A stretch of DNA of 64,000 bases from a virus, in IMG/VR virus record IMGVR_UViG_3300023117_000010, positions 1 through 64,000 of that record. One strand, written 5' to 3'. The notes beneath the pieces are model-generated. The model saw only the letters and a list, made by a program, of their open reading frames with translations. It searched no databases and had not been told where the DNA came from. The position numbers and the translations under genes are program-made. This document shows, in pieces, positions 16,014-30,196 of the stretch. How positions within the stretch are numbered: the stretch's first letter is position 1; the number at the start of each line of letters is the position of its first letter.

Positions 16014-16089
16014 ATTTAATCCTTTCATTTTAGAAATAATATCACTGCTATTATTATAGCATAACAGATGATGACAGTATAGAGAAAAC

Positions 16090-16404
16090 TCATTTTCTAC
16101 TAAATAGCGATCCCAGCCAAGCAAAAAAGACCCAGATGGGATACGTCACCATCATGAGGAACGCTACAGCCCACATGAGTATAGCACCAACGATCATGAA
16201 TCCCCCAGCCAAAACAATGGCAAAGACCAATCCCCATACAAACAGATAGCCACCCATATAGAGAAGTCCCATGATGGAATTCCAATATTCACTATGCCAA
16301 TCCTCATCCTCAGCAGGCGAATTAGCCTTTTTCTCCAATTCGACCTTAGCAGGCATTTGAATACTATTTTGGCTACGAAGTGATACCAACTCCTTGTAGT
16401 CCAT
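16090..16404 (-). CDS. Membrane protein
   Basis: AGGAGG RBS; hydrophobic C-terminal half. Confidence 0.75.
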   Translation of the reverse strand: MDYKELVSLRSQNSIQMPAKVELEKKANSPAEDEDWHSEYWNSIMGLLYMGGYLFVWGLVFAIVLAGGFMIVGAILMWAVAFLMMVTYPIWVFFAWLGSLFSRK

Positions 16405-16413
16405 ATATTCCTC

Positions 16414-16497
16414 CTATTTACCCATTACATTGAATAATACCCAACAGGATATAAGCATAGCACATATCCATATACCTAATGCTATTCCCATAATCAT
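16414..16497 (-). CDS. 27 aa single-TM peptide (not in ORF track)
   Basis: MIMGIALGIWICAMLISCWVLFNVMGK after AGGAAAGGA RBS; first ORF downstream of the leftward promoter. Confidence 0.5.
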   Translation of the reverse strand: MIMGIALGIWICAMLISCWVLFNVMGK

Positions 16498-16522
16498 TCT
16501 TATATTCCTTTCCTATTATATA

Positions 16523-16552
16523 TTTATAACATATATATATAAGCAAAGTCAA
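16523..16552 (-). promoter_or_regulatory. Sigma70-type promoter for the leftward operon
   Basis: TTGACT-18 bp-TATAAA with extended TG. Confidence 0.55.
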
Positions 16553-16559
16553 ATTTAAA

Positions 16560-17640
16560 AAATGCTTTGCGTTTTAAAAAGCATGGGACTCCTAACTTAT
16601 ATCACATCTTGGTCTAAACAGATAGGGGGGGGTATCAACGAGAATGAACGAAGTTTGAAAAATACTCTACAGATTTGAAGGGAGGGGGACTCCTACCCCC
16701 CAGATGGGTTCCCTAAATGTAAATATGATATGGGGGGAGGGGGGTGCCCCTTGTGTATATCCAGAGAGTATGATAGGGGGCACAACTTGACGGCACAACT
16801 ACTTGGCCCTTATCACATAAGTAATATAGATGCAACTTACATATGCGGCACTACACTTGGCTACATATATGTATGTATTAGTGCTTGACATATGGGGATT
16901 CATGTAGTAGCGCACACATAAGTCCCCACTTATATCAACATTTGCCCCACATAACCCCCATTCATACATACACTTATATTACATCTATCCCCTCTATTCA
17001 TGCGGGAATACAGGTATTTGAGTTATATGTAAGTAGTGACGCATCCATGACGATTGTATTCAGTATGTTGTAAGTATGTGACATATCTATATATGTTCTA
17101 TTTGTTATGGATTCTTTATGGATTTATTAGGGCCGCGCCGTGGGTATCCCCTCATACTTTCATCATACTTGTAAGGATTGTATGAGGGCCGAGAGAATGT
17201 GATGGAAGTATTAGAGAAGGCTGAACTATTTGTGAGATTGTGATTCTGTGTTGGGGTTTGGTGAAATGTCGGTATTTGCGAACTTATCCATTTCCCAACA
17301 TGGCTAGAGAAAGTGTGCGATTTGCAGGAGGTTTGTGGGCGCTTAGATGTTATCGCAATGTAAGAACGCACAGGAAGCCTTCTATGCCCTGTTACAAGCG
17401 TTCTAGGTGTCCTTATACCTAGAGATTCCAGAATGTTGGTGTGAGCAGGCATTCTTCATACCTTTGTAAAGAGGATAAGCACCCCTTAGATTGGCTTAGA
17501 GTGATTGAGGGGCCGCTTGTGCGAATCCCGCACAAAGAGATTGAGGAAGCGGTTTACTGAACCTTCATTTGACATAGAGATTCAGATGTAGTATTTGCGC
17601 GAGTGCGTGCGCCTGTACGCGCGGATATGTTGTGGCTCAA
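16560..17640. other. About 1.1 kb non-coding strand-switch region (candidate genome terminus or packaging region)
   Basis: No credible ORFs; G-runs, repeated GGGACTCCTA and CACAACTT; transcription diverges on either side. Confidence 0.5.
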
Positions 17641-17644
17641 TCCT

Positions 17645-17698
17645 CTAACAAAGTCTTTACACGATACCCCTTGTGCAGAGAATCGAAAGGAGTAGTCT
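17645..17698 (+). promoter_or_regulatory. Early promoter P1 with upstream CTAACA-N5-TTTACA box
   Basis: ctaacaaagtctttaca...TTGTGC-16-TAGTCT. Confidence 0.65.
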
Positions 17699-17737
17699 CC
17701 CCGGCGTGGCAAGCAGACCCACTAAGGAGAATGACTG

Positions 17738-17977
17738 ATGGATAAAAACATGCTGAACGACCGGCGTTCCGGTGTGACTAAGTTTGTGGAGGTTCCCTGT
17801 TCGGTGAATCCTCCGCAGCGTGGCGAGACTATCGTTCAGTCTCGCGGCACCGGCACCCGTTGGTTCCATGACCCGTCGCACCGGAGTTGGCACCTGATTT
17901 CCTCGTGCCCCCGGTGTGGTAACATCCACCGCCCCGCAGGAGTCAAGGACACCCGTATCAAGAAGGAGAACGACTGA
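17738..17977 (+). CDS. Small early protein with CxxC
   Basis: AAGGAG RBS; first gene after P1. Confidence 0.75.
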   Translation: MDKNMLNDRRSGVTKFVEVPCSVNPPQRGETIVQSRGTGTRWFHDPSHRSWHLISSCPRCGNIHRPAGVKDTRIKKEND

Positions 17978-18117
17978 TGATTGACATTCTCACCCGCATC
18001 TACGGCAAGGGCTTTGTGTTCCTCGCTCCGTGGTATCTTGACAAGCCTGCGGGTTACATTACCCGTCGTGGATACCACCGCAGCATCATGTATTCGATTC
18101 AGAAGGAGAACGACTGA
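17977..18117 (+). CDS. 46 aa early protein (not in ORF track)
   Basis: MIDILTRIYGKGFVFLAPWYLDKPAGYITRRGYHRSIMYSIQKEND; junction motif at both ends. Confidence 0.7.
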   Translation: MIDILTRIYGKGFVFLAPWYLDKPAGYITRRGYHRSIMYSIQKEND

Positions 18118-18287
18118 TGGAGATTCGCCCCGGCGACATTGTGCTGGTTATGGTCCACGACCGCGAGGTTTGGGCTAGGGTTGATTGGACTGACGGTTTC
18201 CACTACCTTGATGTGGAGCCGCTTACGGGAGTCCTTGCAGAGACTTCCATCGTGTGCAAGACTGACGACGTAATCACAATCGGTTAG
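18117..18287 (+). CDS. 56 aa SH3/KOW-like early protein (not in ORF track)
   Basis: MEIRPGDIVLVMVHDREVWARVDW...; junction motif with RBS. Confidence 0.7.
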   Translation: MEIRPGDIVLVMVHDREVWARVDWTDGFHYLDVEPLTGVLAETSIVCKTDDVITIG

Positions 18288-18300
18288 GAGAGAACCGAGA

Positions 18301-19116
18301 ATGAGTATCAACAAGGCAACAGAAACGCTCATCACCCGGCTTGTGGCTTCCATTGAGTCGCAGCGTAAGGCTATTGACAATACCCTTACTCAGTATGTCC
18401 AGCGCGGTGAGATTGAGCGGGCCGAAAAGGTCCACGGAGAACACCGCAACGGCGACCACGCTGTAAGCATTCGTCGCCCCCGCAAGATTCGCGTGGCTAC
18501 GATGGAGGCAGCGATTGAGTGGATTTCCGCTCATAAGCCTGCCGGTGTGAAGGACGTAATCAAGCGCACCCGTTGGCAGACGAATGGTGCCATTGACTAC
18601 TACATGCAGGTCACGTTCAACGACATTCCGGCATTCAGCGACTACTGTGGGCCGCAGGCCGCTATCATGTTCGCAGAACGGGTATCAGACCGTCGGGATG
18701 CGGCGTGCAAGGCGCGCGAGGAAGTTATGGCGTCTTATGATGCGATGAAGGATGAGGTCAGTCAGGCCGTCCGTGAGGTCACTAACCTCACTATCAAGAT
18801 GCGGCATGAGAAGCGTGACAAGGATTATCGTCGGCAGGTGACTTCGCTGAACGGTCAGATGCGTCGTGACCTTGCTCACGCCTTCGTCGCTACGACGGAC
18901 GAGGAAATCGGCTACCTGTGCGACACCGCCCGTAGCCTGTATATGCTGCTCCCTTCCGGGCAGGACGAGGCAGCGTTGCGGGCTTATCAGTCGGTCACTA
19001 GGTTCCTTGATGCTCGCAGGAGGGCGGCTAGGTTGCAGGACGAGGTTATGGAAATGACTGAGGCTTGCGACGAGTTTGAGCAGAAGATTCGTTCCGGCAC
19101 GCTGGTCGCAGCCTAA
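18301..19116 (+). CDS. Helical/coiled-coil early protein
   Basis: 271 aa ORF, AGGAG RBS, biased codon usage. Confidence 0.85.
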   Translation: MSINKATETLITRLVASIESQRKAIDNTLTQYVQRGEIERAEKVHGEHRNGDHAVSIRRPRKIRVATMEAAIEWISAHKPAGVKDVIKRTRWQTNGAIDYYMQVTFNDIPAFSDYCGPQAAIMFAERVSDRRDAACKAREEVMASYDAMKDEVSQAVREVTNLTIKMRHEKRDKDYRRQVTSLNGQMRRDLAHAFVATTDEEIGYLCDTARSLYMLLPSGQDEAALRAYQSVTRFLDARRRAARLQDEVMEMTEACDEFEQKIRSGTLVAA

Positions 19117-19166
19117 CAAAGTTCTAACCTCCCTTCCCTTGATTGTTGTGGGGAAGGGAGTAGGCT
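19113..19166 (+). promoter_or_regulatory. Early promoter P2
   Basis: ctaacaaagttctaac...TTGATT-16-TAGGCT; 10-bp inverted repeat around the -35. Confidence 0.65.
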
Positions 19167-19200
19167 CTAGTCAAGAGAAAGAGAGAAAGAGAGAGACATT

Positions 19201-19461
19201 ATGGTTCGCAGGTTCTACTCAGGAAGCAACAAGGTGACTGCTCTTCGCACCAACGATGGGAAGTGGATTATCAACGAAATCACCAAGACCGTTCCGGTGA
19301 ATGGCTACTTCTACGACAAGCCGGGGAAGTACCTTGGCTCTGTTGAGAAGGCGGGCAGCAAGTGGAACGTCAGCAGCGCGGAGAACGGGAACGTACCGGG
19401 CTTTGGCACGCTGGCCTCAGCGGTTGCCTACCTTATGACAAGGGAGGCGCAGCGTGCCTGA
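19201..19461 (+). CDS. Hypothetical early protein
   Basis: First ORF after P2. Confidence 0.75.
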   Translation: MVRRFYSGSNKVTALRTNDGKWIINEITKTVPVNGYFYDKPGKYLGSVEKAGSKWNVSSAENGNVPGFGTLASAVAYLMTREAQRA

Positions 19462-19774
19462 GAACAAGGATAGCGATTACATAAACGAACACCCAGATTA
19501 CTACGGAGAGGAAGAAGGTAATCGTATGAGCAACCTTGCAGACCCGAAAGTGACCATCGCAAAGAATGACTACGGAGTGTATGTCACTATTGACTTCCCT
19601 ATTGTGGATGTTGATGGATACGAGAGTACGGCGTCTTACACCGTTTGCTTGGAGAACACCCCTTACGATGATGGTACGCCAAACGCTAGCGTTACCTTCC
19701 ATGACAATCAGCAGTTTGACGACACGCACTATCGTAACGTCCTGCCAGAGTTTCGGATGAAGGAGATTGACTGA
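19454..19774 (+). CDS. Hypothetical acidic early protein
   Basis: GGAGG RBS; overlap with neighbours. Confidence 0.7.
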   Translation: MPENKDSDYINEHPDYYGEEEGNRMSNLADPKVTIAKNDYGVYVTIDFPIVDVDGYESTASYTVCLENTPYDDGTPNASVTFHDNQQFDDTHYRNVLPEFRMKEID

Positions 19775-20001
19775 TGGAGAAGGTTCCCGCTTACATCCTG
19801 ATTGCCCCGGTGACTGATGATGGTGATGAGTTTCGTGCTATCGTCCCCACTCACAAGGGTAAGCCGTTGGGTATGATGGAGATTCAGCAGTACGACGAGG
19901 ATGGTTGGGTGAACGTGGATTGGCTGTATGTAACGGATGAGGACGTTCAGGCTCGCTTTGAGTCTTGGCTGTCTCGCCGTAATGGGAAGGGGAACGACTG
20001 A
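19774..20001 (+). CDS. Hypothetical early protein
   Basis: TGATG coupling; junction motif. Confidence 0.75.
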   Translation: MEKVPAYILIAPVTDDGDEFRAIVPTHKGKPLGMMEIQQYDEDGWVNVDWLYVTDEDVQARFESWLSRRNGKGND

Positions 20002-20231
20002 TGGACGACAAGACTTACGCAGGGCTTATCGAAAGCATGAAGGCCATGACTATCCCGCACGCTATGGTTATCGCCGGTAACGCTTACCGTAGTGGTGGCA
20101 AGCATATGGCAGAGAACGCGGCCCTGCTTGCTATGCTTATCGCTGAGAAGGCTGGCGGCAACATGCGGGTTGCGGCTGAGACAGCATGGAACGCCGCGAA
20201 CGCGATTGAGAAAGATAGGGGGAACGACTGA
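20001..20231 (+). CDS. Hypothetical Ala-rich early protein
   Basis: TGATG coupling; junction motif. Confidence 0.75.
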   Translation: MDDKTYAGLIESMKAMTIPHAMVIAGNAYRSGGKHMAENAALLAMLIAEKAGGNMRVAAETAWNAANAIEKDRGND

Positions 20232-20581
20232 TGAAGAATTACGACGAGCAGTACGATGTGGTGGAGAACATGACCTTTGAGTTCGGTCATGGGACGACCG
20301 TGAGCGACGTTCCGCTGTGTGAGGACGAGTTCTACTACTTCTACATGGTTGTCGGAATGGTCAATCGGAACGGCTACTCCGTTTACTACGAGGGTTCGGA
20401 CGACCTTGACGAGTTGTACGAGCAGGCCGCAACCATCATTTACGACAATGCCTTTGACGGCGCTAACTCTTTCGTCATGGCGACCCCTATTGCTATCGTG
20501 AACACCGTGACTCACAGGATGTATGAGCCTATGCTTCCTGCTATGGTTCAGTTCCGCGAGACTACCGGCATCTTTCTTTAG
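20231..20581 (+). CDS. Hypothetical acidic early protein
   Basis: TGATG coupling; junction motif. Confidence 0.75.
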   Translation: MKNYDEQYDVVENMTFEFGHGTTVSDVPLCEDEFYYFYMVVGMVNRNGYSVYYEGSDDLDELYEQAATIIYDNAFDGANSFVMATPIAIVNTVTHRMYEPMLPAMVQFRETTGIFL

Positions 20582-20598
20582 GATAGGGGAAACGACTG

Positions 20599-20808
20599 AT
20601 GAATGAGTATCAGGAGAAGGCACTTTACCGACTCAACGCTGTTGATGGGGCCGAGCCGGTCTATGAGATTGGTATGACCCCGGACGGTAATCTCCTTGTG
20701 CAAGACGAGGACGGGTGGTATTATCTTATTGACACGGATGGAGAAGTTTATGCCGCGATTTGGACTAAGGACTTACCGCAAGGGCATGTAACGAGGGAGA
20801 GTGACTAG
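20599..20808 (+). CDS. Hypothetical acidic early protein
   Basis: Junction motif start. Confidence 0.7.
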   Translation: MNEYQEKALYRLNAVDGAEPVYEIGMTPDGNLLVQDEDGWYYLIDTDGEVYAAIWTKDLPQGHVTRESD

Positions 20809-21046
20809 AATGTATTACGTTATTGCTGAGTACCCGCTTGGTCAGATGGAGGCCGTACAGAAGGTGATTGAGGAAGTTACGGAATCCTTTGGAGTGGCAC
20901 ACGATTCCGGCGCAGGGTTTGGTATTCGTGATGTATCGTTCTATACTGACGACGAGAGCGAGGCATGGGAGATTCTTTCTTTCCTGCGTGTAAGCAACCC
21001 GCAGCCTGTGAATGACTCTATTGAGTTCTACGATTGGGAGGACTAG
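20801..21046 (+). CDS. Hypothetical acidic early protein
   Basis: GAGGGAG RBS; DSGAGFGIRD motif. Confidence 0.7.
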   Translation: MTRMYYVIAEYPLGQMEAVQKVIEEVTESFGVAHDSGAGFGIRDVSFYTDDESEAWEILSFLRVSNPQPVNDSIEFYDWED

Positions 21047-21047
21047 C

Positions 21048-21242
21048 ATGTTTGTAGTTGTTACCATTACCAACACTCACACCAACGTCATTGGGCCTTT
21101 CCTGCTCCATGAGGATGCCGTAGAGTGGGCGCAGAAGTGGATGGAGCGTATCCCCGGCGTGGCTGGCGTGGCTGGCCTGCTGGATAGCGATGAGGCCGCA
21201 GGGTGGGCTGGCTTTGAGTGGACTACTGAGGAGGTCATGTAA
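21048..21242 (+). CDS. Hypothetical early protein
   Basis: GGAGG RBS then ATG 21048; IGPF....A..WA motif. Confidence 0.7.
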   Translation: MFVVVTITNTHTNVIGPFLLHEDAVEWAQKWMERIPGVAGVAGLLDSDEAAGWAGFEWTTEEVM

Positions 21243-21244
21243 TA

Positions 21245-21463
21245 ATGATTGACGAGAACATCATTGCAAGGGCAATCAACGCGGTGGATAAGGATTATTC
21301 GGTTGAGTGGGACGATGAGCAGCAGTATCCGTCCCTGATTGTGGACGAGATTGTAGATGCTATTATTGACGAGATTCGTTCCTCGTCCCCGCTCAATAAG
21401 TTTGACAAGGATGATTTCCGTTCCAAGTGCTTTGAGGCACGCAACATTCAGTACGGGAGGTAG
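21245..21463 (+). CDS. Hypothetical acidic early protein
   Basis: GGAGG RBS; FDKDDF...C C-terminal motif. Confidence 0.7.
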   Translation: MIDENIIARAINAVDKDYSVEWDDEQQYPSLIVDEIVDAIIDEIRSSSPLNKFDKDDFRSKCFEARNIQYGR

Positions 21464-21467
21464 AGTA

Positions 21468-22028
21468 ATGCCTAATTGGTGTCAGAACATTCTTACTGTA
21501 AGCGGTCCTGTGGAGGCTGTGGATAAGTTCATTGAGGTTGTCAAGACTGACGACTCTCCCCTGTCTCTTTCAACGCTGTATCCTCTCCCCGACGATGTGA
21601 AGCGTGGCGAGGTTCTTACTCACAATGGAGTGTCCATTCCCACTATGTCCGACGAGGAATACCGCTGGCATGTGAAGCATTGGGGTACTAAGTGGGATGT
21701 GTGTGATGTTATTTCACACGAAAGCGTTAGTGATGGAACCAAGACTGTCACCTATCGCTTTGACTCCGCATGGTCCCCGCCTGTTGAGTGGATGGAGCAT
21801 GTGGTAATGAATAACAATGACCTTATGGATGGTCTTTCATTCACGCTGGCATACTGTGAGGCTGGCGGGGGGTATGTTGGAGAGGCAAGCGGTGATTCCA
21901 GCGTCGGCATCTATATTGACGATATGGAAGATTTGTATGACCTTGAATTCGCGGAGGCCGCAGAGTCGGTTGGATTTGAGGGATATGTTGAGATGTATGA
22001 GGAATACGAGGGCAACACGATTTACTAA
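21468..22028 (+). CDS. DUF1281/YubB-like ferredoxin-fold protein
   Basis: MPNWCQN.L.VSG...HWGTKWD...FDSAWSPP...Y.E.G signature. Confidence 0.8.
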   Translation: MPNWCQNILTVSGPVEAVDKFIEVVKTDDSPLSLSTLYPLPDDVKRGEVLTHNGVSIPTMSDEEYRWHVKHWGTKWDVCDVISHESVSDGTKTVTYRFDSAWSPPVEWMEHVVMNNNDLMDGLSFTLAYCEAGGGYVGEASGDSSVGIYIDDMEDLYDLEFAEAAESVGFEGYVEMYEEYEGNTIY

Positions 22029-22078
22029 CACTTTCTTTACATCCACTCTCTTGACAAGGGTGGACAAGAGAGTAGAGT
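22025..22078 (+). promoter_or_regulatory. Early promoter P3
   Basis: ctaacactttctttaca...TTGACA-16-TAGAGT. Confidence 0.75.
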
Positions 22079-22106
22079 TCAGGACAACACAAACAAGGAG
22101 TGCAAC

Positions 22107-22397
22107 GTGAACATGAGTGACCCGATGTATAAGATGGTTGTGGAGCCGATTATGGAGCGCATCATGGAGGCTAATGAGATTGGCCGCGAGTACGCGGAGC
22201 GTTACATCCGTGATACCGTGGAGAGCGCGGTAGAGGCTGAGACTTACCACATGGGCGTTGAGATTGCCGCCATGAACGAGAGGGTTTGCGAGTTGGAGGG
22301 CGAGGTTGAGTCCCTGATGCATGTTGTTTCGATGTTGGAGGACGAGCATCGCGCAAAGACGAACAAGAGTTGGCTTGACCGCCTGCTCGGACGCTAG
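22107..22397 (+). CDS. Coiled-coil early protein
   Basis: AAGGAG RBS; C-terminal SWLDRLLG. Confidence 0.75.
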   Translation: MNMSDPMYKMVVEPIMERIMEANEIGREYAERYIRDTVESAVEAETYHMGVEIAAMNERVCELEGEVESLMHVVSMLEDEHRAKTNKSWLDRLLGR

Positions 22398-22407
22398 GAG
22401 GATTACC

Positions 22408-22572
22408 GTGAGTGAGACTTATTCTTTCGAGATTACCGCTAACCATATCTTCGATGTAGAGGCTGACAGTTTCTCCGCTGCCCTTGACGACGCGGAGGCG
22501 CAGGGCGAAAAGGTGAAGGCCGCGCTTGAGGCTTTGGGCTTCACTATCCTTGAGATTTGCGAGTTCGACTAG
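22408..22572 (+). CDS. Small acidic protein (DpnD/PcfM-like motif)
   Basis: AGGAGG RBS, GTG start; VEADS...A pattern. Confidence 0.65.
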   Translation: MSETYSFEITANHIFDVEADSFSAALDDAEAQGEKVKAALEALGFTILEICEFD

Positions 22573-22582
22573 GAGGATTGTA

Positions 22583-22942
22583 ATGATTACCAAGACGCTT
22601 ATCGGTCGCGTGCCGGTTGATTCCGGCCAGATTATGATTGTGGACCCTTGCTATGTCCTTGATGGTGACGTTCGTTTTGCAGAGGACAACAAGACTGTGA
22701 CTAGCGATAACCCTTACAGCCGTGCCTGCGCTGCTAGCATGGGTGGCGAAATGGCCGGTCCCTTCTCTACGCATGGTGGTAACATGGATGATGCTGTGTG
22801 CAGCAGCAGCGGCTACGGGGACGGTATGTACCCTGTGTATATTGAGTACGAGGACTGTGGTAGTTGGGGAGTCCGTGTCAAGAGCATTACCATTGAGTTT
22901 ATCAACGAGGATGACGAGTGGTATGAGGATGAAGAGGACTGA
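22583..22942 (+). CDS. DUF4241-like protein
   Basis: VDSGQIMIVDPCY...SGYGDGMYPVY signature. Confidence 0.75.
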   Translation: MITKTLIGRVPVDSGQIMIVDPCYVLDGDVRFAEDNKTVTSDNPYSRACAASMGGEMAGPFSTHGGNMDDAVCSSSGYGDGMYPVYIEYEDCGSWGVRVKSITIEFINEDDEWYEDEED

Positions 22943-22944
22943 TA

Positions 22945-23097
22945 ATGACTAACAAGCAGCGCAAGAAGTTTCGTCAGGAGACTCGCACCAACGGTCAGCG
23001 GTTTGACGTTATGCATTCTCGCATTCATGGTGTAGAGTCCAACAAGACAAAGCGCCGCAAGGACAAGCAGCGTGCGCGTGTAAGTGGATGGGAGTGA
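22945..23097 (+). CDS. 50 aa highly basic peptide (not in ORF track)
   Basis: MTNKQRKKFRQETRTNGQRFDVMHSRIHGVESNKTKRRKDKQRARVSGWE; GAGG RBS; fills the operon gap. Confidence 0.6.
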   Translation: MTNKQRKKFRQETRTNGQRFDVMHSRIHGVESNKTKRRKDKQRARVSGWE

Positions 23098-23306
23098 ACA
23101 TGGATACTGACCTTATTTGGATGGACCTTGATACAGGTAGTTGGGGTGGTTGTGCAAGCGATGGTATGCTCATTGTCCAGCGTGGTATGCTTTCTGACGA
23201 GGACCGTGAGATTTTGGAGGACGACCCTAGCGAGCGCGAGGTCTATAAGATTCTTATGAAGTATGTCAGGCTCAACAAGCATTCACACATCGTTACTCTC
23301 GGCTAG
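23088..23306 (+). CDS. Hypothetical early protein
   Basis: ORF in operon; start may be 23100. Confidence 0.65.
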   Translation: MGVNMDTDLIWMDLDTGSWGGCASDGMLIVQRGMLSDEDREILEDDPSEREVYKILMKYVRLNKHSHIVTLG

Positions 23307-23318
23307 AAAGGAACAATA

Positions 23319-23642
23319 ATGACTACTATTCCAGAACTGACTAACGAGGTTATTCTTGGCGTTCTCCAAGAGATTGAGGACAATGGTAATTACATTTCAT
23401 ACCCAGAGGCAGATGTTCTTCTTGACCTCCGGTGCCAGCAAGACAGGCCGTGGCTTCTTGTAGAGCGTAAGCCGGGGGAGCGTGAAGTTTACCTGTCTAT
23501 GCATCGCTCTCTTGACGCCGTTGAGTGGGCTATTCAGGAGGCTATGTGGGATACTGAATGGCGTCCTGTCGCTATTTATGACACGGAGAACGGTACGCGC
23601 CATGAGATTTACCTGTCCATTCAGTTTGAGGGGATGGAATAA
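23319..23642 (+). CDS. Hypothetical acidic early protein
   Basis: AAAGGA RBS. Confidence 0.75.
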   Translation: MTTIPELTNEVILGVLQEIEDNGNYISYPEADVLLDLRCQQDRPWLLVERKPGEREVYLSMHRSLDAVEWAIQEAMWDTEWRPVAIYDTENGTRHEIYLSIQFEGME

Positions 23643-24016
23643 TGGATTGGACTCAGGCTATTGAGCAGTACGAGGATGTTATCGTGGATTTCGATACCTC
23701 CACTAATGTTTATCGGCTCTATTGGGAGTTTATGGATGAGGGTTATTGTGGAGACTTTGACCCTAATGACGACGAGGACTCTCCGCTTCTCCGCTTCACC
23801 ATTGTCTTGGTGGACGACAAGAATGGTGAAGTTGCACTAGAGGATGCGTCTTATTGTACGCTCAACGATGTTTCTACCAATCGTGAAGATTTGGTAAAGT
23901 TGGGAACAAACATCCTTGCTACCCTTGCAACCAAGTACGACAACGACTACTCTTACAAGCATGAGTTGGAGGAAATGTCGTGGGTACGAGCGGGAGGTAA
24001 TCATGTTGGAGCCTGA
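23642..24016 (+). CDS. Hypothetical acidic phage protein
   Basis: EG..GD.DP.D.ED..LLRF...DASYCT motif; TAATG coupling. Confidence 0.75.
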   Translation: MDWTQAIEQYEDVIVDFDTSTNVYRLYWEFMDEGYCGDFDPNDDEDSPLLRFTIVLVDDKNGEVALEDASYCTLNDVSTNREDLVKLGTNILATLATKYDNDYSYKHELEEMSWVRAGGNHVGA

Positions 24017-24179
24017 TTATTATTTCGATGGACGCGCTTGTTATCTTTCCTGTGATGTAGGCAGCAACGATGATTGCGGTTACAGGGACGACGAGGGACA
24101 TAAGCGCGATGAGCCGTTCAATATTTACAGCGAGATTGTTGGAATCTACGAGGATTGGAAGGTGATTGGTAATGTCTAA
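24003..24179 (+). CDS. Small acidic protein
   Basis: GGAGG RBS, ATG 24003. Confidence 0.6.
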   Translation: MLEPDYYFDGRACYLSCDVGSNDDCGYRDDEGHKRDEPFNIYSEIVGIYEDWKVIGNV

Positions 24180-24480
24180 TATTTCACCCGTTGCAAAGCA
24201 GATTATTGACTGTATCCCCGTTCTTATCCGCCCTGCACTTGGCATTGACGAGGACAGTATGGTAGATGTAGACGAGAAGCGTGGTGGTGTTCGCTTCCAG
24301 ACTGATAAGGGACTTACGTTTACTATCGTCAATAACTTTTGGGACTATTTCGACTTGACTATCACGGATGCTGATGGTAACGTGGTCAAGGCGTGGACGG
24401 AGGACGACGAGAGTATTCCTGTTCAGAGTCTCCCGAACGCTTGGAACCTGTACGAGTTTGTGATGATGGAGGTACTGTAA
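24172..24480 (+). CDS. Hypothetical early protein
   Basis: AGGTG RBS; operon context. Confidence 0.7.
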   Translation: MSNISPVAKQIIDCIPVLIRPALGIDEDSMVDVDEKRGGVRFQTDKGLTFTIVNNFWDYFDLTITDADGNVVKAWTEDDESIPVQSLPNAWNLYEFVMMEVL

Positions 24481-24710
24481 TGACTGATTGGAACTCAAAG
24501 GCAGCGGTTGTTCTTACGCTGAACGAGTATGATTTTCTGCTGACGCTTCTCCGTTGGCGCATTGACGAGATTGAGGACAGCGGCATCCACGACCCTGACG
24601 ACGAGAAGGATATTGAAAACGCGCAGAAAATTATTGACACTCTTTACAAGCAGATTGGCCCGCTTATTGACGAGGCGGTTCACAACATCCTGTCGAACAA
24701 GAAGGTCTAG
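24480..24710 (+). CDS. Hypothetical early protein
   Basis: GGAGG RBS, TAATG coupling. Confidence 0.7.
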   Translation: MTDWNSKAAVVLTLNEYDFLLTLLRWRIDEIEDSGIHDPDDEKDIENAQKIIDTLYKQIGPLIDEAVHNILSNKKV

Positions 24711-24712
24711 AA

Positions 24713-25198
24713 ATGTTTTATGAAGGCATTGACATTTATGGTCAGGAGTGGAAGCCGGGAGACAAGGCACGCTTTATGTCAAAGGTTTACAGTCACCTTG
24801 ATGATTACCTGCATTGGGACGCCGGTATCACTTGGTATCCTTTTACTGACCCGATTGACGGAATGGTTTATGGAATCGTCGCTTATCCTGACTACAATGA
24901 TGCTATTTATGTTGGGCAGAAGTTGGGTAAGGCTATCCTTGATTTTGAGTGTGATTACTCTTACACCATGAGGGATATGTTCTTTGATGCAGAGGAATAC
25001 ATCTTTGGCCCACACATTTGGGATGGGACAGGATGCTATGCTCACGGTTGGTATGAGGATGTAAAGGCTGCTTGCATTGACACGATTATGGACTATTACA
25101 ATAATCTTTACAAGTCAAGCCTTGACAGCGACGACCCTGAGACAGTAGAATCCGCACGATTTGACCTTTACAATATCCGTAGGAGTTTGGAGGGATAA
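24713..25198 (+). CDS. Hypothetical acidic, aromatic-rich protein
   Basis: 161 aa ORF in operon. Confidence 0.75.
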   Translation: MFYEGIDIYGQEWKPGDKARFMSKVYSHLDDYLHWDAGITWYPFTDPIDGMVYGIVAYPDYNDAIYVGQKLGKAILDFECDYSYTMRDMFFDAEEYIFGPHIWDGTGCYAHGWYEDVKAACIDTIMDYYNNLYKSSLDSDDPETVESARFDLYNIRRSLEG

Positions 25199-25199
25199 T

Positions 25200-25544
25200 A
25201 TGAGTATTGAAGATTACCTTGCAAAGACGAATGCAGCATACGACCGCTATCACGATTACCTGCGTGTTCTTTTCAACAATGCAGCCAACATGAACGAGTT
25301 TGGGCCGGGTAAGATTTTCAGCATTGTTGTTGCTGACACTAAGGCTCACTACGTTGTTACTGAGTGTGATGATAAGACCGCTACTATTGAGTATGTATGG
25401 CCGGAAGATGAAGCAGACGATGAGTATATTGACCTTTGCACCGACCCTTTTCTTGGTACGGGCGGCACTTTTGACCGTGATAGGATTGAGCCTCTTTGTG
25501 CATACAGCGACAACCTCACTAAGATTTTTGGAGGCAGCAAGTGA
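25200..25544 (+). CDS. Hypothetical protein
   Basis: GGAGG RBS; VAD..A.Y.V motif. Confidence 0.7.
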   Translation: MSIEDYLAKTNAAYDRYHDYLRVLFNNAANMNEFGPGKIFSIVVADTKAHYVVTECDDKTATIEYVWPEDEADDEYIDLCTDPFLGTGGTFDRDRIEPLCAYSDNLTKIFGGSK

Positions 25545-25993
25545 GTAAGACTATGAGTGAGATTGCTGATGAACTTGGCCGCTGGTTGAGCGACGATAAT
25601 AATGTTGGTAAGGAATGGTATGGGCACAACTTTGACCGCTTTGAGCGTCGGCTTACCATCATGGCCTGTGATTGGCTTCATGACGCTGTTGTGAATAACC
25701 CCGACGACGACCTTTTTGATGCAAGGCTTGACTTTTGCGAACATATGGGCTGGAATAACGGTGCAGATGTGCTAGATTGGTTCAGCAACAACCCTCGCGC
25801 AAGCGATTATGTAGATGATTATACAAGCGATTTTTACTATTTTAGCGACAACAATGACCTTGATGGAACAGGCATTATTTATCAGTTGATGAGTGGTGGT
25901 ATTTATGTCGAAGCAACTTACGCTTGGAATGCAGTAGAGGATGCAGTTAGTAAGGTTTACAACGAGAGTAATAAGGAGGGCGACAATGCCTAA
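25541..25993 (+). CDS. Acidic protein, possible Ocr-like DNA mimic
   Basis: D/E-rich helical protein with DVLDWFSNN.R..DYVDD; resemblance only. Confidence 0.6.
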   Translation: MSKTMSEIADELGRWLSDDNNVGKEWYGHNFDRFERRLTIMACDWLHDAVVNNPDDDLFDARLDFCEHMGWNNGADVLDWFSNNPRASDYVDDYTSDFYYFSDNNDLDGTGIIYQLMSGGIYVEATYAWNAVEDAVSKVYNESNKEGDNA

Positions 25994-26240
25994 GATTATT
26001 TCAGATGAGCATTACAAGCGTATTTGTTGTGGGATTCGGGAGCGAGCAGACGCGATGTACGATATGGATACTAACGAGTTCTGGGAACTATATTATGACT
26101 CCGACTACGAGCAGGAATACGTTAATAACGGCTATGTCGGATATGATAATGATAGGGACGGAACTCTTTTTGTAGATTGGTTTATTAACCATGAGATTCT
26201 TTCTGAGATTGATTGGTTTAAGGACATTCCGCAGGACTAA
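25986..26240 (+). CDS. Hypothetical acidic protein
   Basis: AAGGAGG RBS. Confidence 0.7.
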   Translation: MPKIISDEHYKRICCGIRERADAMYDMDTNEFWELYYDSDYEQEYVNNGYVGYDNDRDGTLFVDWFINHEILSEIDWFKDIPQD

Positions 26241-26289
26241 CAAAGTCATTACATTTATGTCTTGACAACAAAACGTATACGAGTAAAAT
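26237..26289 (+). promoter_or_regulatory. Early promoter P4
   Basis: ctaacaaagtcattaca...TTGACA-16-TAAAAT. Confidence 0.75.
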
Positions 26290-26302
26290 ACTAAGCAATC
26301 TA

Positions 26303-26719
26303 ATGAAAGAGAATGAAATGAATAAGACAGTTGTTGGTAAGGTAACTGTATCTGTAAATGTTACGGACAAGTTGGTTAGTGATCTTCTTATGACGGCTTT
26401 TGATTCCCATTACGGCAGCGCAAACTATTGGGCAAACTATCTTAGTCGTGAGGGTAATAACGCAAGCGACATTCTTGATGAGATTTGGTATTCAGTAAAG
26501 TTTCGTGAGCCTGACGAGGCAGACACTATTCATGAGGTCAATGTAGATAAGGTTGTAGAGGCAATCTCTAAGATTCTCAACAACGAGGTTCAGGCTGCGG
26601 ATTATCTCGTTGAGTATCTTCGTCAGGCTGTTGCTAACGACGATTCTGGTTACGCTGATGGTGATGTTGCTGATGTTGTTGTTCAGGTTGCTACTTTCGG
26701 AAACATCGTTTACGGATAG
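26303..26719 (+). CDS. Conserved phage hypothetical protein
   Basis: NYWA...D...ADVVVQ.A.FG.IVYG family motif; first gene after P4. Confidence 0.8.
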   Translation: MKENEMNKTVVGKVTVSVNVTDKLVSDLLMTAFDSHYGSANYWANYLSREGNNASDILDEIWYSVKFREPDEADTIHEVNVDKVVEAISKILNNEVQAADYLVEYLRQAVANDDSGYADGDVADVVVQVATFGNIVYG

Positions 26720-26764
26720 AGAACATAATGCAGATCAAGACGACTATGTTTGTGGGTTGATATA

Positions 26765-26956
26765 ATGATTACACTAAAAGAGGCACAAGAACTTGCTGAA
26801 ATTATTGGATGGCTAAATGCTATTTGCATGGACAGTCAGCCAGAGGACACTATTGTTATTACACCGGGTTTTAAGAGTGAGATTCGTAGGGCACTTGAAA
26901 TTGCTAACTTGGTTCAGTATGATCTTGAAAACAATAACCGCTCTGATGAGTCCTAA
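26765..26956 (+). CDS. Hypothetical protein whose 3' end overlaps the hammerhead
   Basis: ORF; its stop TAA falls at hammerhead stem/loop II. Confidence 0.6.
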   Translation: MITLKEAQELAEIIGWLNAICMDSQPEDTIVITPGFKSEIRRALEIANLVQYDLENNNRSDES

Positions 26957-26992
26957 AGAGGACGAAACGCCGTGAGGCGTCAGCGGGATTAT
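26934..26992 (+). ncRNA. Type I hammerhead ribozyme
   Basis: Stem I CCGCT/AGCGG; CTGATGA; stem II GTCCT-AAAG-AGGAC; GAA; stem III ACGCC-GTGA-GGCGT; predicted cleavage after GTC at 26981. Confidence 0.9.
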
Positions 26993-27265
26993 GGGAGAGT
27001 CTAAGAGGTTGCCACCAATTAGATAATCCGAACTCCGTGGCAACGGGGGAAAGCAGGGGGCAACACGCATGGGGGTTGTCCATCTAGACCTGACATAAAC
27101 CTGCAATACGACCCATGTGATAACAACCCGAATAATGATCTGTTCGGGCTACATAATATAACTAAATATAATAACTAAAGGAATCGGTTGTCGGTGACGG
27201 GTGAGCAGGTAGGTGTAGATCCAATTTGGTGACACCACTTGACTTGACTGTGGAACCGTCTATAA
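26993..27265 (+). ncRNA. Unclassified structured RNA region (hairpins and a pseudoknot)
   Basis: No credible ORF; several 5-8 bp helices and an 8-bp loop-to-tail pairing. Confidence 0.5.
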
Positions 27266-27272
27266 TATTTAT

Positions 27273-27370
27273 GCCCCTAATGGTCTAGTGGCAACGACGC
27301 CGGTATCACACAAGGACGCTTGTGATGCTTATGCGGAAGTTTATCGCGGGTTCGACTCCCGCTAGGGGCT
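27273..27370 (+). tRNA. tRNA-like element with an extended, non-canonical anticodon arm (no assignable anticodon)
   Basis: Acceptor GCCCCTA/TAGGGGC; D arm GTC-TAGTGGCAAC-GAC; T arm GCGGG-TTCGACT-CCCGC; no encoded CCA. Confidence 0.7.
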
Positions 27371-27396
27371 ATGCTTTATCAAAGAAAGGAAATAAT

Positions 27397-27546
27397 ATGG
27401 ACAATACAGACACAATCAAATGCATGTGTGGACACACCATTCCAGAGAAGGATGTTACTTATGTCAATCCAGCAACTAAGGCTGTGACTTGGACAGAGGG
27501 GCTTCCTTACTGTGGTTCCTGCGTCCCTGAAATCAAGGAGGATTAG
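27397..27546 (+). CDS. Small zinc-finger protein
   Basis: AAAGGA RBS; CMCGH...YCGSC. Confidence 0.65.
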   Translation: MDNTDTIKCMCGHTIPEKDVTYVNPATKAVTWTEGLPYCGSCVPEIKED

Positions 27547-27553
27547 AAACACT

Positions 27554-27901
27554 ATGAGTTGGTATGACCCGCCAGAATACCCATTTCAGAAGGCAGCAGA
27601 AGAGATTGATAGTCGTGGACTCTTTGGCCTTTACGAGTATGATGCCGAGGCTGAAAAGATCATAAACTATGACAGGATTCCCGATGAATTCGGCAGCAAG
27701 GAAGAAATGACAAAGTTGTATGACTCAATCGTTGAGGATGAGCCAGAGGCTGCTGATAAGTATATCGTGATCGAACTAAGTTTTGATGCGTGCTGTGAAA
27801 TGGCAGAAAGTGAGTATGAAGATGCCCTTGAAGCGCACTACGATTACAAGTATCATGCAGAGAAAGAGTCGCAGCCTTGCGACTACGATGATTACTACTA
27901 G
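27554..27901 (+). CDS. Highly acidic protein
   Basis: MSWYDPPE start; D/E-rich. Confidence 0.7.
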   Translation: MSWYDPPEYPFQKAAEEIDSRGLFGLYEYDAEAEKIINYDRIPDEFGSKEEMTKLYDSIVEDEPEAADKYIVIELSFDACCEMAESEYEDALEAHYDYKYHAEKESQPCDYDDYY

Positions 27902-27905
27902 GAGG

Positions 27906-28037
27906 ATGAACTTGCGTAAGACAAAGACTTCTAACTACCAAACTCCAAAGAGAATTGCTAAGGTAACTATCAGAAAGACAAAGAAGCGACGAAGCAAGGT
28001 CGGCAATACTGTTCCCAACCCAAAGAGGTTTGTATAA
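27906..28037 (+). CDS. 43 aa basic peptide
   Basis: AGGAGG upstream; TAATG coupling to the next gene. Confidence 0.5.
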   Translation: MNLRKTKTSNYQTPKRIAKVTIRKTKKRRSKVGNTVPNPKRFV

Positions 28038-28441
28038 TGTCAGAGATTCTTGAGAATTATAGTGATATTGGCCTCAAGTATGATATCTCACATATCTCTA
28101 CATACATTTTCAATGTCCCCTCATATGGGCCTATCTATCTAATTGAAAAGAGCAATTCGCCAAATGACGTTGCTAGTATGGCTATTGAGGCAATAGATCG
28201 TAGTAACGTCAGCCTGCTTGATGTTAGGGCATCAGAAGTCGTTGAGGATATTCGCGCTTGGTTTACACACCCAGAGGACGATTCATATTCTCTTAGCGAT
28301 TCTTTTTGGAATCAGGTTGAAACTTTTATTTATGATGAGCAAGATGCTGAAATGCATGAAGCGCAGGAATGGCAGCATGAAATTAGCATGATGAATGCTA
28401 GCCGACAGCGCGAACTTGTAGAGGAAATGAGAGGTTGGTAG
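28037..28441 (+). CDS. Hypothetical protein
   Basis: ORF in operon. Confidence 0.7.
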   Translation: MSEILENYSDIGLKYDISHISTYIFNVPSYGPIYLIEKSNSPNDVASMAIEAIDRSNVSLLDVRASEVVEDIRAWFTHPEDDSYSLSDSFWNQVETFIYDEQDAEMHEAQEWQHEISMMNASRQRELVEEMRGW

Positions 28442-28442
28442 T

Positions 28443-28955
28443 ATGTATTTCCCAAAGAAGAGGGTTTCCCTAAATATTGCAGAGACTTCCTATGTCATGA
28501 ATGCAATCTATGAACTAATCCATCAGGATAATAAGAATTATCAAATTTCAAGCAATTATCATCAGAGTCTTTTGGACCTATTCAATGGTTGCAAGTATCT
28601 TTGGAGCGATCATGAGTGGGAAGTCTATAAGTATGTCGTTACCTTTGAGAAGTCTCAGCGGGGGTGGGAGATAGATCGGGATGCAGAGTGGGAAATCAAT
28701 ATCTTGGATTGCGATTCTATTATATTCACCCTACAGCATACTTTTATGCGAGCATCTAAGGACTTCATCAACGGAGACAAGGATTGTAAAAGGCTGATGG
28801 AAGTAATGAGCGAAATCCTCATTCCTCGGTTCACTAATACTTTCAACGATGATGAGTGGAAGTATTATTTTTCTCTAATTGAAGATAATGATTCAGACGA
28901 TGAAGTTAGTCAGCCACTTGATATTCACAATCAAGATACCCAAGAGGTCAGATAA
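28443..28955 (+). CDS. Hypothetical protein
   Basis: ORF in operon. Confidence 0.7.
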   Translation: MYFPKKRVSLNIAETSYVMNAIYELIHQDNKNYQISSNYHQSLLDLFNGCKYLWSDHEWEVYKYVVTFEKSQRGWEIDRDAEWEINILDCDSIIFTLQHTFMRASKDFINGDKDCKRLMEVMSEILIPRFTNTFNDDEWKYYFSLIEDNDSDDEVSQPLDIHNQDTQEVR

Positions 28956-29022
28956 TGTTTGTTGTTTTTTGTATCCTGTTTGTTTTGGCACCACTTTTAT
29001 TTCTAATAAGATAGGAGAAGTT

Positions 29023-29229
29023 ATGAACAATCAAATCTCAATCACTCTCTATGATGGGCGCGTTGCTCATGTTGAGTCAAGAGAAGATGTAAATGTTGTT
29101 ATTTTTAATTATGGAAATGTAAAAAAGAATAAGTTTTCAAAGAAGAAGTTTGATATCATTTCTATTGAAAATCATCATGTTGAAGGAAAGGGTGATGATG
29201 CAATTGTAGGAGTTAGTGATGAAATTTGA
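29023..29229 (+). CDS. Hypothetical protein
   Basis: AGGAG RBS, ATG 29023. Confidence 0.6.
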   Translation: MNNQISITLYDGRVAHVESREDVNVVIFNYGNVKKNKFSKKKFDIISIENHHVEGKGDDAIVGVSDEI

Positions 29230-29437
29230 TGAAGCAATCCCCTGTATGACAATGGGAAACATGGTTTCTAACGATTCTCTTACATCTAGTGTCTCAAAAT
29301 CTAATTCAAGGTGCTATACTTGTGGGTGTAAGGTAAGCATATACAACCCAAGAAAGCGTTGCTTCCCTTGTCGAAAGAAAGAAGTAGAGATTATTTCTAA
29401 TTCTATTGATTCTATATTTGAAGGAGGTCAGAAATGA
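29216..29437 (+). CDS. Small zinc-finger protein
   Basis: CYTCG...SIYN....CFPC. Confidence 0.65.
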   Translation: MMKFDEAIPCMTMGNMVSNDSLTSSVSKSNSRCYTCGCKVSIYNPRKRCFPCRKKEVEIISNSIDSIFEGGQK

Positions 29438-29610
29438 CAAAGACGAATTTTGCAGATCCTTATGATGATTTTGATGATGAGTTTGTTGAGTGGGTTGCTG
29501 AACTGTTGAAAGACTTTGATGATGTTGATAGTTTTTCCGATTACGACAACTCACAGGACGATTTCTTTTGGATCAAGGAATTGAAGGGGGTAGACTTTGA
29601 TGATGAGTGA
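29434..29610 (+). CDS. 58 aa extremely acidic peptide (not in ORF track)
   Basis: AAGGAGG RBS; 21 of 58 residues are D/E. Confidence 0.65.
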   Translation: MTKTNFADPYDDFDDEFVEWVAELLKDFDDVDSFSDYDNSQDDFFWIKELKGVDFDDE

Positions 29611-30196
29611 AACTGATCTTTGGTCTGTTATTTATCCCGATGATTATGTTCCCGTTCGTGGAGACACTATTCGTTATTATGATTTGAATTGGCGTTCTGC
29701 TGTAGTCTTGAACTCACAAGATGATGAGGTAACTTTTCTTACTCCTGAAAATAAGACTAGGACATTCAACAAGAGTAATGTTAAGGTTGCTCACGATATG
29801 CGTATGCGACTTCTCGCAATGCTCAACGATGATGATGCTGCAAAGAACCGTCAGCAATTTCTTGATGAGTATATTGCTAAGGCAGCAAAGAACGAGAAGA
29901 ACGCATTGGAGGCCAAGGCAGAAGCCTCTCAGAAGCGTTCTAACGGCAAGGGTAAGGTGGCCCGCATGGAGCCTAACCGCGCACAAGAAGTCTCACAACT
30001 TGTCAAGGCCGTGACAGAACTGATTGAGAAGTCAGACAAGCCTATGTATAAGAACGATATTGTTAATTCTGTCAAGATGAACCCCACTACCTATTCTCTT
30101 GTTATGAAGAAGGTTATCGGAGGCCACAAGATCATTAAGGCTGGCAAGAAGAGGGGAACCAATTATCGCGTTGCTGGACGCACATACGGCGAGTAA
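29597..30196 (+). CDS. Putative DNA-binding protein (SH3-like N-terminus, winged-HTH-like C-terminus)
   Basis: C-terminal ...KIIKAGKKRGTNY wing motif. Confidence 0.7.
   Translation: MMMSETDLWSVIYPDDYVPVRGDTIRYYDLNWRSAVVLNSQDDEVTFLTPENKTRTFNKSNVKVAHDMRMRLLAMLNDDDAAKNRQQFLDEYIAKAAKNEKNALEAKAEASQKRSNGKGKVARMEPNRAQEVSQLVKAVTELIEKSDKPMYKNDIVNSVKMNPTTYSLVMKKVIGGHKIIKAGKKRGTNYRVAGRTYGE

What the first reader, a model, noticed from the sequence alone, without database searches (positions are those of the whole stretch)
26934..26992. Canonical type I hammerhead ribozyme overlapping a gene's stop codon
Seen: all catalytic-core nucleotides (CUGAUGA, G-C closing stem II, GAAA, GUC), three perfect 5-bp stems, and a stem I extension ATAA/TTAT beyond a GA bulge. 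The upstream ORF's last codons and TAA form the 5' half. Predicted cut after 26981. Inference: it splits the P4 transcript, and ribosomes finishing the ORF could modulate folding.
Basis: partly seen in the sequence, partly recalled or inferred. Interest (0 to 1): 0.72.

Follow-up and report, generated by a model that had tools for sequence, protein, structure and literature searches.

The report
Phage type I hammerhead ribozyme
A genuine-looking self-cutting RNA (type I hammerhead ribozyme) sits on the last codons of a small early gene of an uncultured salt-marsh phage. It is kept almost letter for letter in a distant relative, but it belongs to a kind of phage RNA element described in 2011, so it is a sound but ordinary find.

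Summary
Window 26938-26986 (+) has every hammerhead core base, three 5-bp stems and a C17 cut site after 26981. It is the only such motif in the window, with none in 300 shuffles. Rfam Hammerhead_1 scores 28.5 bits, below the gathering score of 34 (E 6.7e-5 locally).

Thirty-six related type I hammerheads from other phage contigs show compensatory changes at 13 of 15 pairs. A syntenic metagenome relative (L030) has flanking proteins only 36-68% identical. It keeps the ribozyme identical except for loop II and one stem I end, again with the upstream gene's stop codon in loop II. That upstream gene encodes a real, conserved 63-aa protein.

The most likely role is cutting the early polycistronic RNA. 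The upstream mRNA would end in a hairpin, and the downstream RNA would start with a 5'-OH. That downstream RNA is a roughly 290-nt non-coding stretch followed by a conserved tRNA-like element.

Control by ribosomes and the 'P4' transcript remain inference, and cleavage itself is untested.

Phage hammerheads between small genes are known (Perreault 2011), and this scan has reported many on other DNA. This is a new member of a known kind.

The parts
26938..26986 (+). Type I hammerhead ribozyme: stem I, core, stem II, GAAA, stem III, C17, stem I return strand
   Evidence: Sequence; MFE fold; Rfam RF00163 28.5 bits; descriptor scan 1 hit against 0 in 300 shuffles; conserved in L030
26943..26949 (+). 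Catalytic core strand CUGAUGA (C3-A9), read in frame as part of Ser-Asp-Glu of the upstream protein
   Evidence: Sequence; invariant in 36 family members except U7/C7
26981..26982 (+). Predicted self-cleavage site: after C17 (26981), leaving a 2',3'-cyclic phosphate on 26981 and a 5'-OH on A26982
   Evidence: Position follows from the hammerhead consensus (established knowledge) applied to the sequence. Not tested experimentally.
26765..26956 (+). Upstream gene for a conserved 63-aa protein. Its last five codons (Arg-Ser-Asp-Glu-Ser) and its TAA stop are hammerhead stem I, core and stem II.
   Evidence: ORF list; five homologous protein clusters at 53-98% identity; orthologue in L030 with stop TAG also in loop II
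26262..26289 (+).
   Evidence: Consensus scan, 11 of 12 matches; no equivalent found in L030; function not shown
26982..27272 (+). Non-coding stretch released downstream of the cut. The 5' ~200 nt is poorly conserved; a block at about 27186-27262 is conserved with L030.
   Evidence: No ORF of 40 aa or more on the + strand; fold z -3.2; alignment with L030; contigs from two RNA libraries cover 26994-27218 and 27026-27198
27273..27370 (+). tRNA-like element with normal acceptor, D and T arms but a long rod in place of the anticodon arm; probably a processing signal
   Evidence: ARAGORN gives an odd 98-nt 'Cys aca'; fold; orthologue in L030 scores 43.8 bits with Rfam tRNA and differs by compensatory changes in the acceptor and T stems
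27397..27546 (+). Next gene: small Cys-rich protein with a strong ribosome-binding site, conserved in L030
   Evidence: Sequence; tblastn 57% identity to L030

Best explanation
Window 26938-26986 encodes an active type I hammerhead ribozyme inside the + strand early-gene block of a large uncultured phage.

Once transcribed, it folds into the three-way junction and cuts itself after C26981. This divides the polycistronic early RNA into two products.

(a) An upstream mRNA for the 138-aa and 63-aa proteins. It keeps its stop codon and ends in the stem II and stem III hairpins plus one base with a 2',3'-cyclic phosphate. That end should resist 3' exonucleases and stands in for a terminator.

(b) A downstream RNA that begins with a 5'-hydroxyl. 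It carries a roughly 290-nt non-coding stretch, a tRNA-like element and the following genes.

The type I topology puts about 44 of the 49 ribozyme bases before the cut. This lets the ribozyme be packed onto the end of an ORF without producing a stop-less message.

What is shown: the motif, its fold, its conservation and its covariation. What is inferred: cleavage in the cell and its consequences for RNA stability.
For: - The core and all three stems are complete. The hammerhead fold is the MFE and the centroid, both alone and in context.
- Rfam Hammerhead_1 gives E 6.7e-5. There is one descriptor hit against 0 in 300 shuffles.
- The same-core family occurs in 27 phage contigs. In 36 aligned members, 99.3% of cells are paired and 13 of 15 pairs change on both sides. 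The two invariant pairs are G10.1-C11.1 and A15.1-U16.1.
- Some family members pass the Rfam gathering score.
- The syntenic relative L030 has collinear genes at 36-68% aa identity. It keeps the ribozyme at 46 of 52 aligned positions, differing only in loop II and at one stem I end, while the flanks are 48-67% identical.
- In relatives the upstream stop lies within -21 to +14 of the core start in nearly all. The next ATG lies 19-41 nt after the cut in most. Arrays of up to five copies flank small genes.
- No terminator-like site lies between 26000 and 27800 apart from one at 25978.
- Perreault et al. 2011 (PMC3088659) showed cleavage of prophage hammerheads in polycistronic RNAs, in vitro and in E. 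coli.
Against: - The Rfam score is below the curated threshold (28.5 against 34).
- No cleavage assay and no mapped RNA ends exist for this locus.
- Only one copy is present in the 92-kb record, so no gene is flanked on both sides as in the classic clustered cases.
- No tertiary stem I/loop II contact can be demonstrated, and loop II differs between the two orthologues.
- In L030 the 201-nt context MFE prefers another pairing for the 5' half.
Confidence: 0.8

Rival explanations
1. The ribozyme's main job is to mature a non-coding RNA rather than to separate mRNAs. The hammerhead makes the 5' end, and host RNase P cutting at the tRNA-like element (27273) makes the 3' end of a roughly 290-nt RNA. 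It would be a two-ended punctuation cassette. This is compatible with the best explanation and is a more specific version of it.
For: - The order ORF, hammerhead, non-coding stretch, tRNA-like element, small Cys-rich ORF is conserved in L030.
- The tRNA-like element keeps its acceptor and T stems through compensatory changes. Its L030 orthologue scores 43.8 bits as tRNA.
- In unrelated loci L006 and L023 a hammerhead is followed about 30 nt later by a tRNA-like element without a normal anticodon loop.
- Contigs from two RNA libraries cover 26994-27218 and 27026-27198.
Against: - The first ~200 nt after the cut are only 48% identical to L030 and differ in length. That is weak support for a conserved functional RNA.
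- Most family members are followed directly by a protein gene, not by a non-coding RNA.
- RNase P cleavage is untested.
- The window has a promoter-like site at 27239-27266 that could transcribe the tRNA-like element on its own, although its -10 box is not conserved in L030.
Confidence: 0.3
2. Cleavage is gated by translation. Ribosomes terminating at TAA 26954-56 unfold stems I and II, so cutting happens only when the 63-aa ORF is not being translated. mRNA fate would then be coupled to ribosome traffic.
For: - The stop codon lies in loop II in both the window and L030.
- In most of 19 distinct relatives the upstream stop lies in stem I, in the core UGA or in loop II.
- A ribosome footprint of about 30 nt (general knowledge) would cover stem I, the core and stem II.
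Against: - The overlap is also what tight gene packing alone would give, and the core sequence itself contains UGA.
- Cleavage is irreversible, so ribosomes can only delay it.
- No conserved alternative 'off' hairpin was seen in the window.
- Nothing here measures translation.
Confidence: 0.15
3. The motif is an inactive relic or a chance look-alike that serves, at most, as a pair of stabilising hairpins.
For: The Rfam score is below gathering. It is a single copy in the record. No activity data exist.
Against: - 0 hits in 300 shuffles.
- Every core base is intact.
- Near-perfect conservation against flanks that are 48-67% identical.
- The core bases are conserved even though only hairpins II and III would be needed for stabilisation.
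Confidence: 0.05

Closest known systems
Hammerhead ribozyme, type I (Rfam RF00163, clan CL00010)
   Same: Full consensus core, G10.1-C11.1, A15.1-U16.1, C17, an open stem I, and loops closing stems II and III. Stem II (GUCC...GGAC) even matches the Rfam consensus.
   Different: It scores 28.5 bits, below the gathering score of 34. Stem I is short (5 bp), with no demonstrable loop II contact. The setting is a phage operon, not satellite DNA, viroid-like RNA or a retrozyme.
Clustered hammerheads flanking genes in prophages and phages (Perreault et al. 2011, PMC3088659; reviewed in PMC6155905)
   Same: Same strand as small phage genes of unknown function, placed at a gene junction. The proposed role is the same: cutting long phage transcripts into shorter units.
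   Different: Those examples are multi-copy arrays that flank genes on both sides. Here there is a single type I copy. It overlaps the coding end of the upstream gene and is followed by non-coding RNA rather than by the next start codon.
HHphage of haloviruses HF1/HF2 (Perreault et al. 2011)
   Same: A single hammerhead in an early polycistronic region of a lytic tailed virus, expected to define a transcript 5' end.
   Different: HHphage is a core variant that needs high salt and lies 13 nt upstream of a helicase start codon. This one has a canonical core and lies about 415 nt before the next start codon.
tRNA punctuation, and tRNA-like 3'-end signals such as mascRNA/MALAT1 (named from general knowledge)
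   Same: A tRNA-shaped, non-decoding element downstream could recruit RNase P. Together with the ribozyme it would delimit an RNA.
   Different: This applies only to the neighbouring element, not to the hammerhead. RNase P cleavage was not tested.

Membership tests
Hammerhead ribozyme | Conserved core C3 U4 G5 A6 N7 G8 A9 ... G12 A13 A14 | tested here: met
   CUGAUGA at 26943-49 and GAA at 26964-66; aligned to the RF00163 consensus
Hammerhead ribozyme | Three helices around the core, with G10.1-C11.1 and A15.1-U16.1 closing pairs and a non-G base at position 17 | tested here: met
   Stems of 5, 5 and 5 bp; G26950-C26963; A26967-U26980; C26981
Hammerhead ribozyme | Helices supported by covariation among relatives | tested here: met
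   36 phage relatives: 13 of 15 pairs change on both sides, 99.3% paired, slid controls 25-40%. Caveat: the alignment was fitted to the model, and stems II and III of 19 of the 36 rows were fixed by the search pattern.
Hammerhead ribozyme | Score at or above the Rfam gathering threshold (RF00163, 34 bits) | tested here: not met
   28.5 bits. Orthologue L030 scores 28.0. Other members of the same phage family pass at 35.9-37.5.
Hammerhead ribozyme | Mg2+-dependent site-specific self-cleavage giving 2',3'-cyclic phosphate and 5'-OH ends | not testable with these tools
   The RNA-library data were contigs only and did not cover the site
Hammerhead ribozyme | Tertiary contact between stem I and loop II, needed for fast cleavage at cellular Mg2+ | tested here: inconclusive
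   An A/GA internal loop follows the 5-bp stem I. Loop II differs between the window and L030. The AUAA/UUAU extension is not conserved.
Type I topology | Stem I open, stems II and III closed by loops | tested here: met
   Loop AAAG closes stem II and loop GUGA closes stem III; the 5' and 3' ends leave through stem I
Clustered phage/prophage hammerheads (Perreault 2011) | Several ribozymes close together, flanking single genes or short gene blocks | tested here: not met
   Only one match in the whole 92-kb record with model R1 and with the descriptor scan. Relatives in other phages do form arrays.
Clustered phage/prophage hammerheads (Perreault 2011) | Lies at a junction of same-strand small phage genes in a polycistronic region | tested here: met
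   + strand block of small ORFs at about 17.7-30.8 kb. The record is a phage: portal, terminase and DnaE-like polymerase are present.

The most novel reading that the evidence does not exclude
The hammerhead and the non-decoding tRNA-like element 291 nt downstream work as one conserved two-ended processing cassette. The ribozyme makes the 5' end and host RNase P makes the 3' end. Together they excise a stable non-coding RNA with a 5'-OH from the early operon. The ribozyme also encodes the last five residues and the stop codon of a conserved protein, so that translation of that protein times the cut.
Probability: 0.25. Interest if true: 0.55.

Novelty: new member of a known kind. Interest (0 to 1): 0.3.

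Why it matters
It adds a well-supported example to the known class of hammerheads that punctuate phage operons. The biological role of that class is still an open question (PMC6155905).

Three points are useful:
- This phage type I subfamily mostly falls below the Rfam cut-off, so routine annotation misses it.
- The ribozyme is conserved far better than the genes around it. That argues for function.
- The pairing with a tRNA-like element, seen in two unrelated lineages, offers a concrete testable case of ribozyme cleavage and RNase P cleavage cooperating in phage RNA processing.

None of this changes the general picture.

Tried and rejected
Searches that found nothing or could not run:
- Rfam at gathering thresholds over the window: no match.
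- Megablast of 3 kb around the site against cultured phages: nothing.
- The search for related loci in viral contigs with the 138-aa protein, the 63-aa protein and the 63-aa family alignment: no relatives.
- A pattern for the conserved block upstream of the tRNA-like element in viral contigs: no match.
The DNA of the closer protein relatives P0002-P0005 could not be fetched. Their C-termini differ from the window's ribozyme-encoded tail, and I could not tell whether they carry the ribozyme.
- The genome search on L030's record: not held.

RNA-library contigs: four metatranscriptome runs gave only short, low-depth contigs. None covers 26863-26993 and none bridges the cut site. This is evidence neither for nor against cleavage. 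No read ends can be taken from contigs.

Readings considered and rejected:
- A decoding tRNA-Cys at 27273-27370. It has no 7-nt anticodon loop, and the Rfam tRNA model does not match it in the window.
- Shared ancestry of the whole locus with the other 27 hammerhead loci. There is no protein similarity.
- A promoter of its own for the tRNA-like element as settled fact. The -10 box is not conserved in L030.

Full report
**What is there**

The window is the first 64 kb of a 92-kb uncultured virus record, estimated 57% complete. It carries a portal, a terminase, a replicative helicase and a DnaE-like polymerase. The polymerase is only about 32% identical to those of Rhodococcus and Gordonia phages. 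DNA runs that hold the stretch come from salt-marsh metagenomes.

G+C is about 0.35, except for a + strand block at roughly 16-30 kb (0.43-0.54) that is packed with small ORFs of unknown function. The finding lies inside this block.

**The observation**

The sequence gives:
- stem I: CCGCU 26938-42 with AGCGG 26982-86
- core: CUGAUGA 26943-49
- stem II: GUCCU/AGGAC with loop AAAG, 26950-63
- GAA 26964-66
- stem III: ACGCC/GGCGU with the GNRA loop GUGA, 26967-80
- C17 at 26981

ViennaRNA returns exactly this three-way junction as both MFE and centroid. This holds for the element alone (z -2.3) and within 201 nt of context.

Rfam's Hammerhead_1 model matches end to end at 28.5 bits. E is 6.7e-5 in 600 nt and 2e-3 in 19 kb. 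The score is below the curated 34 bits, so the default scan is silent.

A descriptor scan I wrote required the core, G10.1-C11.1, A15.1-U16.1, a non-G at position 17 and stems of at least 4 bp. It finds this one site in the window and nothing in 300 shuffled windows.

The AUAA/UUAU extension beyond a GA bulge can be drawn, but it is not part of the predicted fold and is not kept in the orthologue described below.

**The overlapped ORF is a real gene**

ORF 26765-26956 encodes 63 aa and has five homologous protein clusters at 53-98% identity, with a conserved RRALEIA core. Its last codons, Arg-Ser-Asp-Glu-Ser-stop, are ribozyme stem I, core and stem II. The TAA at 26954-56 straddles the stem II/loop II boundary.

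**Relatives**

A pattern built on the core and stems II/III found 27 IMG/VR contigs. Their stem I sequences differ freely but always pair.

A covariance model built from them (R1) found further copies on the same strand in the same loci. There are up to five within 2.3 kb (L007), and also arrays in L012 and L015.

In the 36-member alignment, 99.3% of cells pair and 13 of 15 pairs change on both sides. Slid controls give 25-40% pairing. The two invariant pairs are those that are invariant in all hammerheads. One caveat applies: the alignment is model-fitted, and for 19 of the 36 rows stems II and III were fixed by the search pattern.

Several members pass Rfam's threshold at 35.9-37.5 bits. A cultured example appears in Streptomyces phage Spernnie.

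These loci share no proteins with the window. What they share is the ribozyme, not the neighbourhood.

**A syntenic orthologue**

A metagenome contig (L030) is collinear with window 22-30 kb at 36-68% protein identity. At the same place it carries the same ribozyme (64.2 bits with R1).

The two copies are identical at 46 of 52 aligned positions. All differences lie in loop II or at the outer end of stem I, where the window's A·G becomes A-U. The flanks are 48-67% identical.

The upstream ORF in L030 again reads through the core (…Arg-Ser-Asp-Glu-Ser-Leu-stop), with its TAG in loop II. This conservation is the strongest argument that the element is functional.

**Surroundings**

Only one hammerhead exists in the 92-kb record. 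Upstream there is a promoter-like site at 26262-26289 (11 of 12 matches). No terminator-like site follows it.

Downstream of the cut come 291 nt without an ORF, then a 98-nt tRNA-like element at 27273-27370, then a small Cys-rich ORF at 27397-27546.

The tRNA-like element has normal acceptor, D and T arms but a long rod in place of the anticodon arm. Its L030 counterpart scores 43.8 bits with Rfam's tRNA model, yet ARAGORN does not call it. The two differ by compensatory changes throughout the acceptor stem and in the T stem.

A block just upstream of it, at about 27186-27262, is also conserved. It includes the window's TTGACT -35-like box, but the TATAAT -10-like box is not conserved in L030.

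In the unrelated loci L006 and L023, a hammerhead is followed about 30 nt later by another tRNA-like element without a normal anticodon loop.

**How it most likely works**

The following is inferred from the anatomy and from published work on prophage hammerheads (PMC3088659). The early RNA is cut after C26981.

Because the topology is type I, nearly all of the ribozyme stays on the upstream product, and so does the stop codon. No stop-less message is made. That product ends in the GNRA-capped stem III plus one base with a cyclic phosphate. Such an end should resist 3' exonucleases and substitutes for a terminator.

The downstream product starts with a 5'-OH. From general knowledge, such ends are poor substrates for 5'-end-dependent RNases.

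In most relatives the upstream stop lies between -21 and +14 of the core start, and the next ATG lies 19-41 nt after the cut. This fits a general gene-punctuation role.

The window and L030 differ from that pattern. Here the downstream partner is non-coding RNA plus a tRNA-like element. This suggests a cassette in which the ribozyme and RNase P together delimit an RNA. I rate that at about 0.25-0.3.

Gating by terminating ribosomes is geometrically possible but untested, and I rate it at about 0.15.

**Comparison with what is known, and novelty**

Type I and type II hammerheads in bacterial, prophage and phage DNA have been known since 2010-2011. They are often found between small ORFs of unknown function, and their role is still called open.

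This scan has itself reported many phage hammerheads on other DNA. These include stop-codon-embedded ones, and one case where mini-tRNAs and hammerheads swap at the same gene junction.

The present element is therefore a new, well-supported member of a known kind. It has a conserved coding overlap and a conserved tRNA-like neighbour as modest points of interest.

**Limits**

No cleavage data exist for this locus. The RNA-library data were contigs that do not cover the site.

Noticed in passing
window 27273-27370; L030 3449-3516: A conserved tRNA-like element. The acceptor and T stems are kept through compensatory changes between the two phages, and a D loop with GG is present. The anticodon arm is replaced by a ~50-nt rod in the window and by a short aberrant arm in L030. 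The Rfam tRNA model gives 43.8 bits in L030, but ARAGORN calls none there.
   Followed up: partly
window 27186-27262; L030 3379-3448: A conserved block just upstream of the tRNA-like element, with predicted nested helices. It contains the window's TTGACT-16-TATAAT promoter-like site, whose -10 box is not conserved in L030. The block may therefore be RNA structure rather than a promoter.
   Followed up: partly
L006 7527-7685 (-); L023 593-747 (+): In phage contigs with no protein similarity to the window, a type I hammerhead is followed by a short hairpin and then a tRNA-like element whose anticodon loop is 3-6 nt. It scores 36-39 bits with Rfam tRNA. This is a second, independent pairing of a hammerhead with a tRNA-like element.
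   Followed up: partly
L007 1038-3370 (+); L015 1453-8083 (+); L012 4627-5721 (+): Arrays of three to five type I hammerheads on one strand between small ORFs, with different stem sequences in each copy.
   Followed up: partly
window 16000-30000: The + strand block of small ORFs has G+C of 0.43-0.54, against about 0.35 for the rest of the phage. This is an unusually sharp compositional island inside a phage genome.
   Followed up: no
window 26994-27218: Contigs from two salt-marsh metatranscriptome libraries of different studies cover 26994-27218 and 27026-27198. In one run this is the only piece laid on the 1.5-kb stretch. The non-coding region after the ribozyme is at least present in RNA libraries.
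   Followed up: partly
L031 1502-1546 (Streptomyces phage Spernnie, MT701594.1): A hammerhead match (34.7 bits with model R1) in a cultured Streptomyces phage. It lies under an annotated ribosome-binding site and the start of a hypothetical CDS, so that gene start may be mis-called.
   Followed up: no
window 2904-12614 (-): A single 3236-aa ORF. It was not included in any of the family searches run here.
   Followed up: no
window 26765-26953 and proteins P0002-P0004: Closer relatives of the 63-aa protein end in ...AELSGE(EV) instead of the ribozyme-encoded ...NNNRSDES. Either they lack the ribozyme or it sits in a different register. Their DNA could not be fetched.
   Followed up: partly
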